Assembly (NCBI RefSeq): GCF_006345805.1
Contig: NW_021823798.1
Coordinates: forward strand, 1 to 23,264
Direction of reading: 5' to 3'
Source of the DNA: Octopus sinensis
Lineage: Eukaryota
Length of the DNA: 23,264 nucleotides
Within the stretch, counting starts at the first letter, position 1. The number at the start of each line of letters is the position of its first letter. A program made the translations under genes and the position numbers. The notes beneath the pieces are model-generated. The model was not told the DNA's origin. It saw only the letters and a list, made by a program, of their open reading frames with translations, and ran no database searches. This document shows positions 4,083 to 22,255 of this stretch, piece after piece.

Positions 4083-4454
4083 TTTGTCTCAAGGGCAGCC
4101 ATTTTGGGGAAGGGGATGAGTCGATTACATTGAACCAGTGTCTCACTGGTACTAAATCTATCGACCCCGAAAGGATGAAAGGCAAATTTGACCTCGGCGG
4201 AATTTGAACTCAGAACGTAAAGACAGACGATATACCTATTTCTTTACTACCCACAAGGGGCTAAACACAGAGAGGACAAACAGATTAAGTCGATTATATC
4301 GACCCCAGTGCGTAACGGTGCTTATTTAATCGGCCCCGAAAGGATGAAAGGCAAAGTCGACCTCGGCGGAATTTGAACTCAGAACGAAGCGGCAGACGAA
4401 ATACCGTTAAGCATTTCGCCCGGCGTGCTAACGTTTCTGCCAACTTACCGCCTT
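4083..4454 (-). mobile_element. SINE family A dimer: full copy (4237-4454) joined to a headless copy with a different tail (4083-4236)
   Basis: tRNA-like head (TGGCAGAAACGTTAGC A-box-like; GAGTTCAAATTCC B box) and central GCCTTTCATCCTTTCGGGG.CGAT domain. The B box and central domain are present twice. Flanked by (TAA)n on both sides. Confidence 0.9.
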
Positions 4455-4456
4455 AG

Positions 4457-4521: not shown

Positions 4522-5115
4522 CTTTCTTTTTCCGTAGAGCTTTCTGATGAAGGTGATATAAGTACAGTTTACGATTTTCGTGCCGATTTACGTAAGGAAT
4601 GTGAGGGGGAAAGGAAAGAATGGGGAGAGGGGGTAAAAATGTATCTAAATGTACATAGTATACAAAACATGTAAATACATGGATGATGCAGTCCTCCTGA
4701 TACAAGACAGCCTCCAACTAGGGCTAATCAAAGAACCCCTACAGACCCAGCGTCACTCTGAACACGAAGGACACGAACCCTCGCCAAGCTGTTATTCTCC
4801 ATTCTGCTTATTCCAAGCAGAACTTGAAGAAGCCGATGAGGACTTGACTGAAAACGATATCTGTCCTCAACAATTTCAACCTCGTTCATCACACAACTTT
4901 TTTTTCTGCTTGGTTACGAGACGAAATAACATTGCCTGCAACACATTAAAGGCAGGCGGTTGGGCGAACCTACAATGGACTCGGAAAGCATAAAGTTTCG
5001 TACTACATCTGATAACAGCTGTTCCACATAACTCCTCGAGTCATCAATACTCGGACACTACATGAGTGTGTGCCGTACGACTTTGTTGCTCTATGCACAT
5101 TTCAGACAGTCTCAC

Positions 5116-5352
5116 CTATTTTTTTACCACCCACAAGTGGCCAAACACAGAAGGGACAAACAAGAACAGACAAACGGATTAAGTCGATTACATCGACCCC
5201 AGTGCGTAACTGGTACTTAATTTAATCGATCCCGAAAGGATGAAAGGTAAAGTCGACCTCGGCGGAATTTGAACTCAGAACGTAACAGCAGACGAAATAC
5301 GGTTACGTATTTCGCCCGGCGTGCTAACGTTTCTGCCAGCTCGCCGCCTTCC
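5116..5352 (-). mobile_element. SINE family A, full-length, with 14-bp target-site duplication
   Basis: Complete head-body-tail. TSD TCAGACAGTCTCAC at 5102-5115 and 5353-5366. Confidence 0.95.
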
Positions 5353-5699
5353 TCAGACAGTCTCACTTGGCGGCACTTCCATGCCTGTAGATTTCACCTT
5401 ATACCAATGAACACTTTTCACTACCAGACCCCGAGTTTCTAAAAGTTATTTCTAGAAATCGCCGGCCCAAAAGCCCCACGCAACAGACAAACCAGTTCGG
5501 CCGGTTCCATTGAGGACAGTGAGGTGTTTTGAGATTGGTATTTGGATGTTAAATATCATGGAAAGAGACCCTGTGAGACCCTTGTCAGTAGGCTGTTGGC
5601 CGCTCCTACAAAACCAGCCGGAGCAAGTAAAATCAAGAGCTCTGGAAAGTGAAATGAAAATGAGAATAACAACAACACTGAACCACTGAAAAAGCATCT

Positions 5700-8371: not shown

Positions 8372-9555
8372 TATTATTGTCTTTGCACAGCATCTAACGC
8401 TGGAGATGTACTACGGTGTCAGCTGTTCACTACCAGTGAACTAAAGTAACACCCGTTATTTTTCGAGCACCATCTGGAGTATTCGAGTGATTCCAAGTAG
8501 TGTTGTTTTCTGCAAGTGCTCCACCCTTATTGCAGTCCCTATTTGTCCCATGTACTTCTCAAGATTTTTACTCACTATTCCCAGGGCTCCGACAATTATT
8601 GTTCCACCTTTTGTTTTTTCGACCACAACTGCTTAACCTCCCATGTAACCTGTCATATCTATCGACTTTTCTTTCTTCCTTATCGCATACCTTGTTGTCA
8701 GCTGGGCATGCTATATCTATGGTCCAGCATCGTTTGCTTTCTTTCTCAATTAACACTATGTCTGGTTTCCTATTCTCTATGTCATGGTCGCACTGAACCG
8801 TAAAATCCCATAGGATCTTTGAATTATCATTTCCGATGATGCCTTCGTGTTATGTTCGTACCACTTTCTTGCTCTGTCAAGTCCATACTTGTTGCAAAGT
8901 ATCCAATGGACAATCCTTGCTATATTGTCATGACGTCTCTTATATTCTTTCTGGGCTACTGGCGTACATTGACTGGTATTATGCCATTAAGTTTCACCAT
9001 TTTGTCCACAAATTCTTGTCACTTTCTGATGTGTTGTCTATTCTGTATTTGATGTAATTCGTTCTTAATGCCTCCGGTTTTAAATCACTTTTATTCATCC
9101 ATAGCCTTTTTTTTTCTCTGTCTGTCTTATCTTCCACATCCCTATTAAATTGTTCATGTATTCGTTTCTTTATCCACCTATTTTCAGTTTCATTCATTCT
9201 CAAGTCCTTGTACAGTGCTTTGATTTTTGCAATCTCCCATCCTACACGATCCTGCACTTCTTACTTCCAATAATAACGGTTCTGTTACATCTTTTACATA
9301 CCATATTATGCTGTTTTCTTCTACTCTAATGCTGTGTTCGCATCCAATAAGTCCTCTTCCCCCTCACGTTACTTTTTCTTGGTACATAGTCTGTCTGCGT
9401 CACTTTTTGGTTGGAGTATTCCATATCTAGTCGGCAACTCCCTTATCTGTCTACGCTCTTTAGTTCATCTACTGTCCATGCGATTACCCCTGTTCCATAT
9501 CTAAGTAGTGAAACCGCTCAGGTGTTGATAGCTTCAATCTTATTCCATCCGTTTA
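8372..9555 (-). mobile_element. 5'-truncated R4/Dong-like non-LTR retrotransposon (RT thumb, zinc-knuckle region, RLE endonuclease, 3' UTR), frameshifted
   Basis: Minus-strand peptides NGWNKIEAINT*AVSLLRYGTGVIAWTVDELKSVDR; YIKYRIDNTSESD; RRHDNIARIVHWILCNKYG; KILWDFTVQCDHDIENRKPDIVLIEKESKRCWTIDIACPADNKVCDKEERKVDRY (PD..D RLE motif); LQKTTLLGITRILQMVLEK* (stop 8456-8458). The short 3' UTR ends in AATAATA. Confidence 0.9.
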
Positions 9556-9770
9556 AGGCTGAGAGCTGGCCAAATCGTTAGCACGCCGGACGAAGTGCTT
9601 AGCGATATTTCGTCCGTCACTGAGTTCTAAGTTCAAATTCCACCGAGGTCGACTTTACCTTTCATCCTTTCAGGGTCGATAAATTAAGTACGAGTTTTCG
9701 TACCGGGGGTCGATCAAATCGACTGGTCCCCTGCCCCTAGAAAATCTATATTGTGCCTATAGTAGAAAGG

Positions 9771-9821
<51 letters not shown>

Positions 9822-10049
9822 TTATATTATTATTAAGGCGGCAAGCTGGCAGAATCGTTAGCACGCCGGGCAGAATGCTTAGCGGTATTTCGTCTCCTGT
9901 TACGTTCTGAGTTCAAATTCCGCCGAGGTCGATTTTACCTTTCATCCTTTCGGGGTCTATAAATTAAGTAAGTACTGGTTGAGTATTGGGGTCGATTTCA
10001 GGCCTTGTGCCTATAGTCGATTTCAGGCCTTGTGCCTATAGTAGAAAGG

Positions 10050-12533: not shown

Positions 12534-12660
12534 CACAGTGGAAGAGACTGGCATATGAACGTTGCAAATCTCATTTCTAGAATTTGTCAAGAAATTTTGT
12601 GACTTATTTATCTTCCTTAATGTAAATATAATTTTAACAGCAATATATGTGTGTATATCT

Positions 12661-12870
12661 AAGGCGGCAAGATGGCAGAATCGTTAGCAACCCGGGTAAA
12701 ATACTTAACAGGATTTCGTGTTTTTACGTTCTGAATTCAAATTCCGCCGAAGCCGAGTTTGCTCTTCACTTTTTCGGGGATGATAAAATGAATGCCAGTT
12801 GACGCTGTAGTCGATTTAGTCAACTTACCCTTCCCATAAAACTGATGGCTTTGTCTCAAAATTTGAACTG
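12661..12870 (+). mobile_element. Older SINE family A copy (tail type 3)
   Basis: AAGGCGGCAAGATGGCAGAATCGTTAGC...GAATTCAAATTCCGCCG...TTTTCGGGGATGATAAAAT...CCCTTCCCATAAA..TGATGGCTTTGTCTCAAAATTTGAA. Confidence 0.8.
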
Positions 12871-13305: not shown

Positions 13306-13944
13306 TATATATATATGTATATATGTAATACATTAACAGTCAGCTTGAATCTTGCTTGCTTGCAATGTTACCCAGCTAAACTGGCGCATAATGGGAAAAT
13401 ACAATGAATTAAATTACCCTGAAATGTTAATACGAACAGAATAAAACAAGTTTCACGTAAATCGGATAAGTTTTTAGATATTAGATGTTTTCGGGGTTCA
13501 GATACCCAAAACGGTGCATAATTGGGAAAATATTCTGAATCTTAATCCTGAAAGGGAAGAAACTCTTATCTTTCAATTAAACACAGTGACTTGATAACGA
13601 AAAAATAAGAGTTGTTTTTTCTTTTACAGTAAATGTTTCTATTTTCGCTTTTGTTAAACAGAATATTTTAATCATTTAGAAATATTTTTAAGTAAATGTG
13701 ATTTTCAAAATGTAAGTTGTTTATACAGTAAGTATTTACATTTTAGATTTCTTTAAACACACAATATTTTAATATATTTTATAATTATTTTCAAGTGAAT
13801 ACCATTACAAAACATTCATTTTTTTGGCATATTTCAAAAATATTTTAAAGTGAAAATTACTTTAAAAATACGGTAAATATTTCGTAAGAGATCCGTTCGT
13901 AACCTCAGTGAGAAATAGTCTTTTTCCATAGGTTTTTTTTTCGA

Positions 13945-14865: not shown

Positions 14866-15838
14866 ACTAAGTAGGTACTTTACCATCCTAAAATAGGTAC
14901 TGACAACGAAGTGCAAGTTCCACCGATTACGTTGGTTATTCTACTCAGCATTGAGGCAAAACAACAACGCTCTTTCCTACTCACAGCAAGATGAACTACA
15001 TTATTCTACAGTAGATATCAAGTGATACAACTATTTAGTTCTGACTAGATCTCAGAGACCGATAGATCTGGCACAGGCCCTACAGAGTAATGTAGTCGTG
15101 TTTCCAGTAGTGTTGCAATCGCAAGAATCTAAATTTGGCGCTTCAGTCCATCGCTTCGGCATTCAGAGAGCAGAGCACTTGAGCCCGCCTACACCAATTT
15201 ATATTGCCCTCAGCTAATACTGATGACCAATGATATATAGTTCGGTTTATTTCACTCAAAAACTCTTTAAGCGCAAATGATAAAATATAGCGGAAGAATC
15301 GATCGTTTCCACGAAATAATTCTACACAAAAATAGAAATAACACACACACACACACACACAACACACACACACACAACATAGGCTATAACACCAGAATTA
15401 GGGAAATAACGAGCTGTAACCAATACAACTTCTTCAGCTACACTAAATCATTCAAGCTCTACATTTACTACTATGTCAAACAAAAGAGTATATGGGAACA
15501 GTAATTCCTAGAATCGATAAACTTACAGGGTGTTATTTTTAGTAACACTTATCACAATGAATTAGAATATTAGTACGAAACCGTTTTTGAATTTCATCAT
15601 GTTAACAGCAATCCTCTCAACAATACTTGCCGGGAATATACAGTCTATCTATCCTTCTGTTATATCTATGTATTATTTTTTTTTCTCTCTGATAATATAT
15701 TTATTGATCTCTTTACATATGACTACCTGTATGTCATATATATATATGTACATATAAAATAACATACATACATATAAGTATATATATATATATATATATA
15801 TATAAGAATATATATATGTGCATAGATATATATATATA

Positions 15839-16232
15839 CTAGCAGTATCGCCCGGCGTTGCTCGGGTTTGTAAGGGAAATAACTATATAAGCATTTTTAG
15901 AGAGTTATAGCCAAAAAATAGCAAAAAAATGCATTAAAAATTGAAAAAAAATTAAGGTAAATTTTTTTTTAAATCGTTGACACATCGTAGATATTTTTAG
16001 AGAGTTACTTCCCTTATATAAAAGCGAAAAAAATGCATTCAAATGGAAAAATATGATGGTAAATTTTTTTAAAATCGTAGACTCATCGTAGACGCGCGCT
16101 AATACCCAGAAGGGCTCGATATGAATCACGACTATAAGATACTCGCTTTTGGTTAAACTGCACGGCAAAATGTGGGAGTAGTTACGAATCTAATCGAAGG
16201 GACAGACACACAACTTCACTCTTATTAAAAGA
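15839..16232 (-). mobile_element. Non-autonomous Helitron (394 bp)
   Basis: Minus strand A|TCTTTTAATAAGAGTGAAGTTGTGTGTCTGTC ... CCCGAGCAACGCCGGG hairpin, CGATACTG, CTAG|T. This gives a canonical 5' TC, a 3' hairpin + CTAG, and an A|T insertion site. Contains two ~100-bp internal direct repeats (15893-16093). Confidence 0.85.
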
Positions 16233-18230: not shown

Positions 18231-18535
18231 ATGAGAGACCTCCGACTTGCCAGTTTCACACACGATGTTTGGGACACCCTGATGCTAAGGCGTAAGGCAC
18301 TTGCACATTTAGGCACAGGTATCGAACCAGGAACTTTAAGGTTGAATCCCTGACACTAAGATACATACATAACAATATAATATATTAATATATATATAAT
18401 ATATATATAATATATATATATATATATTATATATATATATATATATAATATAAGGATAAATAATTATTAATTTTTAAAAATCATACATTTCTGTATGGAA
18501 ATATAACCATTATCGGTAGGAACTTTTTAAAAAAA

Positions 18536-18586
<51 letters not shown>

Positions 18587-18770
18587 TATATATATTATAT
18601 ATATATATATAAGGGCAAGCAATAGGTTGCTTAGCCACATACCGAAAAATTAGAAATAGTAGTCAAAGAGAGCATATTTCTATTTTCTACAAATATAATC
18701 CCACATACAACATGTGACTCACATATGTCAAACAGAAGGAAAGAATAACGAAAACAAAGTCTTTTGGGTA

Positions 18771-18830
18771 GTTACGGACGCGTTTTTGGATTAGAATTAT
18801 AAATCAATTCATTTCCTTCTTCAGCGTAAC
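18771..18830 (-). ncRNA. Minimal type I hammerhead-ribozyme-like motif (G12>A variant) in a Penelope-like cassette
   Basis: Minus strand GTTACG-CTGAAGA-A-GGA(aatGAATTgatttatAATTCtaa)TCC-A-AAAAC-GC-GTC-CGTAAC. It has a perfect 6-bp stem I, a CUGAAGA core, stem II, a palindromic ACGCGT stem III and a GUC site. The cassette sits between (TA)n and (TACA)n. Confidence 0.65.
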
Positions 18831-18917
18831 AGTCTACTTAAATAGGTTTTGCAAATGCTATACATACCTCCAGCTTCCCGAAGTAGCGTCATCGGAGATA
18901 GTAGGAGATAGCCAGCA

Positions 18918-19012
18918 CATATATATACACATACAAACATATATATATATATATACATACATACATATATACATACATACATATATACATACATATATAG
19001 ATACATACTTAC

Positions 19013-19043
<31 letters not shown>

Positions 19044-19251
19044 CATATATGCATACATATATACATACATATATACATACATACATATATACATACATAC
19101 ATATATACATACATATATAGATACATACTTACATATATACATATATATGCATACATATATACATACATATATACATACATACATATATACATACATACAT
19201 ATATACATACACATACATATACATACATACATACATACATACATACATACA

Positions 19252-19285
<34 letters not shown>

Positions 19286-19290
19286 ATATA
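18918..19290. repeat. Compound (TACA)n/(TA)n microsatellite with ~120-bp higher-order duplication
   Basis: The variant ATATAGATACATACTTACATATATAC occurs at ~18995 and ~19115. Confidence 0.9.
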
Positions 19291-20956: not shown

Positions 20957-21350
20957 CTAGCAGTATCGCCCGGCGTTGCTCGAGTTTGTTTCGACCCTTT
21001 AGAATTGGAATTTTTTAAAGGTAAACATTGTGCATTATGTAGCTTGTTATTCTCTTTAACTGAACATTTTTCTGGTTGAAATACACCGAAAAATGGTGAC
21101 ACAGCTGTCAAAAAATCCTAAAAAATAGGGATTTTCCTAGAAAAAAAAAGCATCATTTTGATGTAAATAATTTTTGGTGTTAACATGGTCCGATTTGAAT
21201 TTTATCTTCTTCGGAATGAAGAGCAAGCCTTCTTCTATCATGCTCTCAATTTTGGTGAACTTGCGCCGCAGGGTCCCGGAGGAGATAGTGTTAGTTGAAG
21301 GCTACCAAACCTGCCATACACAGACAACTTCAGCTTTATATATATATAGA
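20957..21350 (-). mobile_element. Non-autonomous Helitron (394 bp), same termini as 15839-16232 but different interior
   Basis: Minus strand A|TCTATATATATATAAAGCTGAAGTTGTCTGTGT ... CTCGAGCAACGCCGGGCGATACTGCTAG|T. Confidence 0.85.
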
Positions 21351-21846
21351 TAATGATAATTTGCTAACTCCAAAATTTAAATTTATAAATTGGGGGCAAA
21401 ATTGAAATAGGTAAGGTCAGTAAAATATTTTCGATTCTATCACATTTTTACATTTAGCTCGTCACTTTCTGTACATTACTGAATAATTGCTTATCATTAT
21501 CAAATAGCTCGGTAGTATATATAATGAGCAATTTTGAAAATTAAGAAAATGGGATATAGTAGAGTTGTATCCTTCAATTTCAACATCGAAAACAAAAATA
21601 TTAGAAATCTGTAGAGATATCATCCAATCAATAAATAATTAAGGCATTAACATTATTTTGCTTGTGAGGAATTCTTTGCTATTTTACAATAATTCTGTCT
21701 TAATTTGAAATATTTTGATGCAGTGATGGGATCGTATGATGGAAACGAGGCTTCTGAATTGATTGTTATTGTACAAACATGAACTATGTTAATATAAATT
21801 CTGACTACTCTCCAATAATCTTTAAAACTATGTTAGTAGAGAGATG

Positions 21847-22255
21847 AAGGCGACGAGCTGGCAGAAACGTTAGCACGCCGGGCGAAATGAGTAGCCGTAT
21901 TTCGTCTGCCGTTACGTTCTGAGTTCAAATTCCGCCGAGGTCAACTTTGCCCTTCATCCTTTCGAGGTCGATAAATTAAGTACCAGTTACGCACTGGGGG
22001 CGATGTAATCGACTTAATATCTTTGTCTGTCCTTGTTTGTCCACTCTATTTTTCGCCCCTTGTGGGTAGTAAAGAAATAGGTATTTCGTCCGCCGCTGCG
22101 TTCTGAGTTCAAATTCCGTCGAGGTCGACTTTGCCTTTCAACCTTTCAAGGTCGATAAATTAAGTACCAGTTACGCACTGGGGTCGATGTAATCCGTTTG
22201 TCTGTCCTTGTTTGTCCCCTCTATGTTTAACCCCTCGTGGGTAATAAAAGAAATA
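21847..22255 (+). mobile_element. SINE family A dimer: full copy (21847-22079) plus headless copy (22080-22255), both tail type 1
   Basis: B box, central domain and the TGTGGGTA.TAAA.GAAATA-type tail are each present twice. The junction reads AAAGAAATA|GGTATTTCGTC. Confidence 0.92.

What the first reader, a model, noticed from the sequence alone, without database searches (positions are those of the whole stretch)
18771..18830. Hammerhead-ribozyme fold hidden between microsatellites (minus strand)
Seen: GTTACG-CTGAAGA-AGGA...TCC-AAAAAC-GC-GTC-CGTAAC has a perfect 6-bp stem I, the CUGANGA core, stem II, a 2-bp stem III built from the palindrome ACGCGT and a canonical GUC cleavage triplet. Only the G of GAAA is changed to A. 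Established: minimal type I hammerheads with palindromic stem III, active as dimers, mark Penelope-like element termini and animal non-LTR retrozymes. Inference: this is a solo, probably inactivated terminal repeat of a Penelope-like or retrozyme family inserted in a (TA)n/(TACA)n tract.
Basis: partly seen in the sequence, partly recalled or inferred. Interest (0 to 1): 0.75.

Follow-up and report, generated by a model that had tools for sequence, protein, structure and literature searches.

The report
Dead copy of hammerhead retrozyme family
This is one broken copy of an old, protein-less jumping element, present in a few hundred pieces in this genome, whose self-cutting-RNA (hammerhead) shape is conserved across copies and which is likely pasted into TA repeats by the enzyme of Penelope-like jumping genes; its kind is already known.

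Summary
The hammerhead fold at 18771-18830 (minus strand) is there. Alone it is no more stable than shuffles, but it belongs to a dispersed non-coding family with a ~570-nt unit, where the fold is clearly conserved. G12 is present in 55 of 57 unselected copies, stems I and II covary, and C3-G8 switches to U3-A8. The window copy's G12A is nearly private and likely kills it. The copy spans 18445-18918, with the (TA)n(GA)n tract inside it. And the whole family lacks the canonical G10.1-C11.1 pair (A or C opposite A in 66 of 73), which a sister family keeps. Copies end at two fixed sites that run into (TA)n. Back-to-back arms pair the two sites (22 of 23), and 25 of 138 arms exceed one unit: Penelope-type footprints. 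No linked ORF was found; a young Neptune-type element with its own hammerhead is in the genome. Verdict: a new, old member of the known animal retrozymes, likely mobilised in trans. The scan has already noted similar families elsewhere in this genome. Cleavage and expression are untested.

The parts
18445..18918 (-). 5'-truncated copy (about 0.8 unit) of family A, a ~570-nt non-coding hammerhead element; starts about 135 nt upstream of the cleavage site and ends at end site b
   Evidence: nearest copy L002 is 91% identical
18771..18830 (-). Type I hammerhead fold: stem I, core, stem II with a 3x3 internal loop and outer stem, palindromic helix III
18818..18824 (-). Core C3-A9 (CUGAAGA), C3-G8 form
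   Evidence: family: C-G 51, U-A 13 of 73
18787..18817 (-). Stem II; its first position is an A10.1 / A11.1 mismatch (18817 and 18787), shared by the family
   Evidence: A.A 39, C.A 27 of 73; sister family G-C 18 of 23
18786..18786 (-). G12A change; likely inactivating, nearly private to this copy
   Evidence: G in 55 of 57 unselected copies; a contig of run X1 over 18710-18918 differs only at 18768; rate loss from PMC2553840 passages
18778..18783 (-). Palindrome ACGCGU (15.1 to 16.1); would form a 6-bp helix III only between two ribozymes
   Evidence: sequence; dimer model from PMC4209133
18776..18777 (-). Predicted cleavage site, after C17 of GUC
   Evidence: cleavage not tested
18612..18669 (-). 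Conserved 3' module that ends at end site a; shared with related hammerhead families
   Evidence: a 21-mer from it has 241 exact matches, control 0; related families
18538..18611 (.). (TC)n(TA)n tract inside the element; likely an expansion of the family's short internal TA run
18445..18537 (-). Tail between end sites a and b
18375..18444 (.). (TA)n tract at the 3' junction; likely the target site
18919..19290 (.). (TA)n/(TACA)n tract at the truncated 5' junction

Best explanation
The window holds a 5'-truncated copy, likely dead through its G12A change, of a ~570-nt non-coding repeat whose hammerhead fold covaries across copies and which is likely copied from its own RNA into (TA)n tracts by the reverse transcriptase and endonuclease of a Penelope-like (probably Neptune-type) element. 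Shown: the family, the unit length, the covariation, the two fixed 3' ends, the back-to-back arms and the longer-than-unit copies. Inferred: the unit is transcribed; two ribozymes pair through the ACGCGU palindrome and cut at GUC; the monomer is ligated to a circle (or an uncut multimer is used); the borrowed enzyme nicks TA-rich DNA and starts copying at two internal sites about 190 and about 315 nt downstream of the cut site, one per strand in two-armed insertions, running back through the ribozyme. After insertion this copy decayed like neutral DNA and gained G12A.
For: Family: 40 of 1042 candidates were scored, the 39 other copies being 79-92% identical; 241 exact matches to a 21-mer. Unit period 576 in L018 and about 565 in L004; longest stop-free frame 75 codons. 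Core: G5 54, A6 56, A9 56, G12 55, A13 56, A14 55, A15.1 55, U16.1 53 of 57 unselected copies, while position 7 takes all four bases. Covariation in 73 copies: C3-G8 51 / U3-A8 13; 10.4-11.4 G-C 35 / A-U 34; 10.2-11.2 G-C 55 / A-U 7. The sister family, about 60% identical, keeps the core and replaces most stem pairs. Ends: 117 of 138 arms in 94 loci end at site a (71) or b (46); of 23 joined back-to-back pairs with both ends at a or b, 22 pair a with b (expected share 0.48). 25 of 138 arms exceed one unit, and only 1 of 138 starts within 5 nt of the cut site. A Penelope-like enzyme starts at two internal RNA sites and prefers AT-rich DNA (PMC11167929). A young RT + GIY-YIG element with an ORF up to 796 codons, its own hammerhead and a (TA)n 3' junction is in this genome.
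Against: No autonomous element sharing the family's 3' module was found: the young Neptune-type element has no nucleotide similarity beyond TA runs, and the PLE fragments near copies are not continuous with them. No head-to-tail array with two complete ribozymes was seen in family A; the two arms that cross two cut sites have only part of the first ribozyme. The 10.1-11.1 pair is absent in 66 of 73 copies, and U4C (8 of 57) and C3.A8 (5 of 73) are shared among copies, so the family may have spread with a weak or idle ribozyme. Covarying cells come from a few subfamily events, not from independent copies, and the shuffle control ignores relatedness. Monomer folds are not stable beyond shuffles (z +0.3 to -1.6, 6 sequences).
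Confidence: 0.8

Rival explanations
1. The unit is the pseudo-LTR / 3' end of an extinct coding Penelope-like element, and the copies are truncated insertions of that element.
For: Two 3' ends with a tail, inverted arms and TA targets are features of coding PLEs (PMC11167929; PMC8557442 passages); most hammerheads of PLEs occur as single motifs (PMC4209133). Only 40 candidates were scored per DNA search, so rare long copies could be missed.
Against: Upstream of one unit the sequence returns to the unit's own 3' part (25 of 138 arms longer than 576 nt, up to 830) and never to an ORF. tblastn with the Neptune-type protein on 142 loci hit L053 and five other loci (four places), none continuous with the element.
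Confidence: 0.1
2. In family A the hammerhead no longer cleaves usefully; the fold is kept as an RNA structure that the borrowed enzyme binds, or as a slowly decaying relic, and copying uses uncut read-through RNA.
For: Loss of the 10.1-11.1 pair in the whole family; shared U4C and C3.A8 states; no pile-up of 5' ends at the cut site; catalytic mutants did not impair insertion in vitro for an anole PLE (PMC11167929).
Against: C3-G8 to U3-A8 is a swap inside the catalytic core, seen in two parts of the tree (weak support), and G12, A13, A14, A9 stay fixed across two families 60% apart. An axolotl retrozyme with a U.U mismatch at the base of helix II cleaves, well as a dimer (PMC7229834 passage).
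Confidence: 0.25
3. The motif is a chance match in AT-rich repeat DNA.
For: Folding z = -1.15; no Rfam hammerhead hit.
Against: 24 genome matches to a full-core pattern against 0 for the reversed control; compensatory changes in 17 of 18 named pairs; the same fold in sister families.
Confidence: 0.01

Closest known systems
Animal non-LTR retrozymes (PMC7229834, passages; bioRxiv 10.64898/2026.07.22.740005, parts 1-2 of 5)
   Same: Non-coding, low GC, one type I hammerhead per unit, short palindromic helix III, dispersed monomers, proposed mobilisation by PLEs; 576 nt lies within the 51-972 bp range of the preprint.
   Different: Longer than the 150-450 bp classical repeats; old (79-92% between copies); no tandem array of two complete ribozymes seen in family A (one dimer, spacing 531, in sister family B); two-armed insertions with two fixed ends; circular RNA not shown.
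Axolotl HHR_Amex2 (PMC7229834, passage)
   Same: Type I retrozyme hammerhead with a 2-bp helix III and a mismatch at the base of helix II.
   Different: The mismatch there is U.U; here A.A or C.A. There cleavage was measured (22% in 1 h as a monomer, more as a dimer); here it is untested.
Hammerhead-bearing pseudo-LTRs of Penelope-like elements, Neptune clade (PMC4209133 parts 1-2 of 4; PMC11167929 parts 1-2 of 4; PMC8557442 passages)
   Same: Hammerhead near the 3' end, U3-A8 core variant, two 3' end points with a tail, tandem/inverted insertions, (TA)n targets.
   Different: No ORF; no extra base after A9; helix I of 6 bp and helix II of 4 positions with internal loops, unlike the minimal PLE form.
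Other hammerhead families noted by this scan in the same genome (e1-10332748, e1-8665878, e1-8829993, e1-8912631; unchecked notes)
   Same: Non-coding hammerhead units, TA targets, two-armed insertions pairing two end points.
   Different: A look-up by sequence found no look-alike of this family; several of those are described as young and in high copy, while this one is old with a few hundred pieces.

Membership tests
Type I hammerhead ribozyme | Intact core (C3-G8 or U3-A8, U4 G5 A6, A9, G12 A13 A14, A15.1-U16.1, H17) in the family | tested here: met
   34 of 57 unselected copies and 47 of all 73 are fully intact; each invariant position is kept in 48-56 of 57
Type I hammerhead ribozyme | Intact core in the window copy | tested here: not met
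   G12A at 18786
Type I hammerhead ribozyme | Three helices with compensatory changes | tested here: met
   relatedness of copies not controlled
Type I hammerhead ribozyme | Paired 10.1-11.1 closing stem II (a filter criterion in PMC3088659) | tested here: not met
   A.A 39, C.A 27, U-A 3, other 4 of 73 in family A; G-C 18 of 23 in family B
Type I hammerhead ribozyme | Site-specific self-cleavage | not testable with these tools
   needs an assay; only contigs were available
Animal non-LTR retrozyme | Non-coding unit with one hammerhead | tested here: met
   longest stop-free frame 75 codons; period 576
Animal non-LTR retrozyme | Head-to-tail repeats with two or more complete hammerheads | tested here: inconclusive
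   none in 94 family A loci, but 25 of 138 arms exceed one unit; one dimer in sister family B, L132; searches scored only the top 40 candidates
Animal non-LTR retrozyme | Expressed as linear and circular monomer RNA | not testable with these tools
   no run on record as RNA and no raw reads
Pseudo-LTR of a coding Penelope-like element | Flanks an RT + GIY-YIG ORF in sense | tested here: not met
   no continuous ORF in 142 + 10 loci
Insertion made by a Penelope-like enzyme | Two fixed 3' ends with a tail, inverted arms, AT-rich target | tested here: met
   117 of 138 arms end at two sites; 22 of 23 pairs join a with b

The most novel reading that the evidence does not exclude
A retrozyme lineage fixed an unpaired A/C.A at the G10.1-C11.1 position, passed through C3.A8, U3.G8 and U4C states, and swapped its 3-8 core pair more than once while still transposing. 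It would be a natural mutant series showing that these hammerheads work in the cell only as dimer- or protein-assisted ribozymes, with a conserved pair of AAU/UAA internal loops supplying the tertiary contact; standard searches would discard such hammerheads.
Probability: 0.25. Interest if true: 0.5.

Novelty: new member of a known kind. Interest (0 to 1): 0.3.

Why it matters
The copy itself is ordinary decayed repeat DNA. The family is useful in two modest ways. First, its subfamilies form a ready-made set of natural hammerhead variants (10.1-11.1 mismatch, U3-A8, U4C, GUU versus GUC) next to a canonical sister family, which allows a direct test of whether cleavage is needed for retrozyme spread, an open point for Penelope-like elements. 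Second, the strict pairing of two end sites in two-armed insertions supports the idea that both nicked strands prime at different internal RNA sites; the scan has noted this already for other families.

Tried and rejected
Rfam scan of the window: no hammerhead among 85 matches at E<=10. Single-sequence folding: not beyond shuffles. Expression: no RNA holder listed; contigs of runs guessed to be RNA (X1, X2, X7, X8) hold family pieces but cannot show strand, ends or transcription. The 'goes back 540' joint in X7 and X8 is only the unit's own continuation on a redundant reference, not proof of a circle. Excess of 5' ends at the cleavage site: not found (1 of 138 arms; 30 of 32 matches keep family sequence upstream of the site). 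Autonomous partner: the young Neptune-type family shares no sequence with family A; four PLE fragments beside copies were followed and none is continuous with the element. A second intact hammerhead in the window: none by my scanner. A GT..AG intron around the ribozyme was considered from the sequence; the joints do not show it, and contigs cannot exclude it. Literature searches: hammerhead + octopus + ribozyme and retrozyme + cephalopod listed no description of this family; hammerhead + G10.1 + C11.1 + mismatch gave 0 papers. Repeat databases could not be searched, and no supplements were read. Rows left out: five family A arms lacking the 5' half of the ribozyme and three family B rows (one truncated, two duplicates) before alignment A1; L020 from the tree; duplicate loci and loci of other families before the end counts.

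Full report
Observation. The minus strand of 18771-18830 reads stem I (GUUACG), CUGAAGA, A, GGA, a hairpin with a 3x3 internal loop, UCC, A, AAA, ACGCGU, C, stem I (CGUAAC). Taken alone the sequence is unremarkable: folding z = -1.15, and Rfam lists no hammerhead among 85 matches at E<=10. The case rests on the family.

The family. A search of the window's own genome (2.7 Gb) with 18612-18918 scored 40 of 1042 candidates; the 39 other copies are 79-92% identical. A 21-mer from the 3' part has 241 exact matches with 0 in the control, and a full-core pattern has 24 with 0 in the control, so the family has at least a few hundred pieces, many without the ribozyme. Copies extend on both sides of the query. 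The unit is circularly permuted, with a period of 576 nt in L018 and about 565 in L004, and it is non-coding (longest stop-free frame 75 codons). The window copy spans about 18445-18918. It starts about 135 nt upstream of the predicted cut, and the (TC)n(TA)n tract at 18538-18611 lies inside it, where other copies have a short or expanded TA run.

The ribozyme fold is conserved. In 57 copies found by BLAST alone, the invariant positions are kept in 53-56 copies (U4 in 48), position 7 takes all four bases, and 34 have a fully intact core. G12 is present in 55 of 57, so the window's G12A is nearly private. A contig of run X1 covering 18710-18918 differs from the window at one other place only, so G12A is unlikely to be an assembly error, although X1 may come from the same source. 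G12A slowed a full-length hammerhead about a million-fold (PMC2553840, passages). In 73 copies, C3-G8 (51) alternates with U3-A8 (13), 10.4-11.4 is G-C (35) or A-U (34), and 10.2-11.2 is G-C (55) or A-U (7). The U3-A8 swap is a known natural variant (PMC3088659 passages; PMC4209133). A sister family B, found through one pattern match and about 60% identical, keeps the core and the ACGCGU palindrome and changes most stem pairs. On all 96 rows, 88.6% of cells pair (shuffles 77.9%, slid registers 23-42%) and 17 of 18 pairs show a two-sided change; RNAalifold finds stem I, stem II and the outer stem II unaided. These counts reflect a handful of subfamily events, and I drew the structure from the same sequences, so they are not probabilities.

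A and B align without gaps through the core. Where B has G10.1-C11.1 (18 of 23), A has A.A (39) or C.A (27) of 73. Helix II therefore keeps its four-position length but opens with a mismatch. Both helices continue past 3x3 internal loops; a U follows helix I in 92 of 96 rows and an A precedes the return strand of helix II in 93 of 96, which fits the usual loop 1-loop 2 contact (recalled, not tested). This is canonical type I geometry, not the minimal PLE form of PMC4209133 (parts 1-2 of 4). One published search rejected hits mispaired at 10.1-11.1 (PMC3088659 passage), but an axolotl retrozyme with U.U at that place does cleave, best as a dimer (PMC7229834 passage). A tree from the 150 nt downstream of the ribozyme separates A from B (100/100) and places U3-A8 in a basal group and in a supported 25-row clade that also holds C3.A8 and U3.G8 rows and a nested C3-G8 subfamily (98/96). 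U4C rows cluster near the window copy. Only 15 of 92 inner branches are well supported and the bootstrap had not settled.

Insertion footprints. In 94 non-redundant loci there are 138 arms; 71 end at site a (about 190 nt past the cut), 46 at site b (about 315 nt) and 21 elsewhere, and the a and b ends mostly run into (TA)n. Of 30 joined back-to-back pairs, 22 join a with b, 1 joins a with a, and 7 have one other end; 22 of 23 is far above the 0.48 expected. I counted this after an earlier scan note described the pattern (e1-10332748). 5' ends are scattered, and only 1 of 138 lies within 5 nt of the cut. 25 arms exceed one unit (up to 830 nt), so the template was a circle or an uncut multimer. 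Two arms cross two cut sites but hold only part of the first ribozyme; family B has one true dimer with spacing 531 (L132). A purified Penelope-like enzyme starts at two internal RNA sites that define an optional tail, prefers AT-rich DNA, inserts RNA whose ribozyme is catalytically dead, and assists its hammerhead (PMC11167929, parts 1-2 of 4). Microsatellite bias and tandem/inverted insertions are described for PLEs (PMC8557442 passages).

The likely enzyme. The genome holds a young element with RT and GIY-YIG domains (weak Pfam hits below cut-off; I call it Neptune-type from a recalled CX4CxxC linker), at least 150 matches, 14 of them 100% identical in the searched part, and open frames up to 796 codons. 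Its 3' region carries its own hammerhead (U3-A8, ACCGGU palindrome) and ends in (TA)n. It shares no sequence with family A beyond TA runs, and no PLE ORF is continuous with any family A or B copy. Mobilisation in trans by this clade is therefore inferred, and the actual partner is unknown. Further related families share the 3' module and end site b (L155, L178-L182), so A is one of a clan.

Comparison and verdict. It works like the animal non-LTR retrozymes (PMC7229834 passages; bioRxiv 10.64898/2026.07.22.740005, parts 1-2 of 5), and meets the non-coding and one-ribozyme-per-unit tests; the tandem test is inconclusive and the circular-RNA test could not be run. It fails the test for a coding element's terminal repeat. 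Three literature searches listed no description of this family or of this mismatch; repeat databases and supplements were not seen. The scan has already noted many similar families in this genome, none matching this sequence. I rate it a new member of a known kind, interest 0.3. The one feature of note is the family-wide loss of the stem II closing pair beside a canonical sister family.

Noticed in passing
L053:7540-9695 (minus); L093-L122: Young Neptune-type Penelope-like family with open frames up to 796 codons and a 3' hammerhead (U3-A8 core, ACCGGU palindrome, U17), ending in (TA)n; at least 150 matches.
   Followed up: partly
L123-L142: Sister family B (~530-nt unit) with canonical G10.1-C11.1, stem I covariation, many two-armed insertions and one head-to-tail dimer in L132.
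   Followed up: partly
L155, L179; L178, L180-L182: At least two more families share the 3' module and end site b; L179 has a hammerhead with a long stem II and an 8-nt palindrome.
   Followed up: no
window 18636-18684: Contig depth in runs X3 and X4 is about ten times that of the rest of the element, in line with this module being shared by more abundant repeats; depth is not a copy number.
   Followed up: partly
window 8571-9260 (minus): Broken reading frames of a non-LTR retrotransposon with a restriction-like endonuclease motif (KPDIV...IDIACP; label recalled).
   Followed up: no
window 15838-16220 and 20958-21350: Two related TA-bounded elements with the same start and a TATAGAT-like end, resembling non-autonomous Helitron-type elements (label recalled).
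   Followed up: no
window 4135-4455, 5114-5354, 9552-9970, 12660-12830, 21843-22181: Several copies of an abundant SINE-like repeat in both orientations, often beside (ATT)n tracts.
   Followed up: no
window 13340-13620; L053:5990-6220: Another TA-bounded repeat shared between the window and L053; no hammerhead found in it by my scanner.
   Followed up: no
L005 and L009: Two near-identical loci 8 kb apart on C17 including flanks: a local duplication or an assembly repeat.
   Followed up: no
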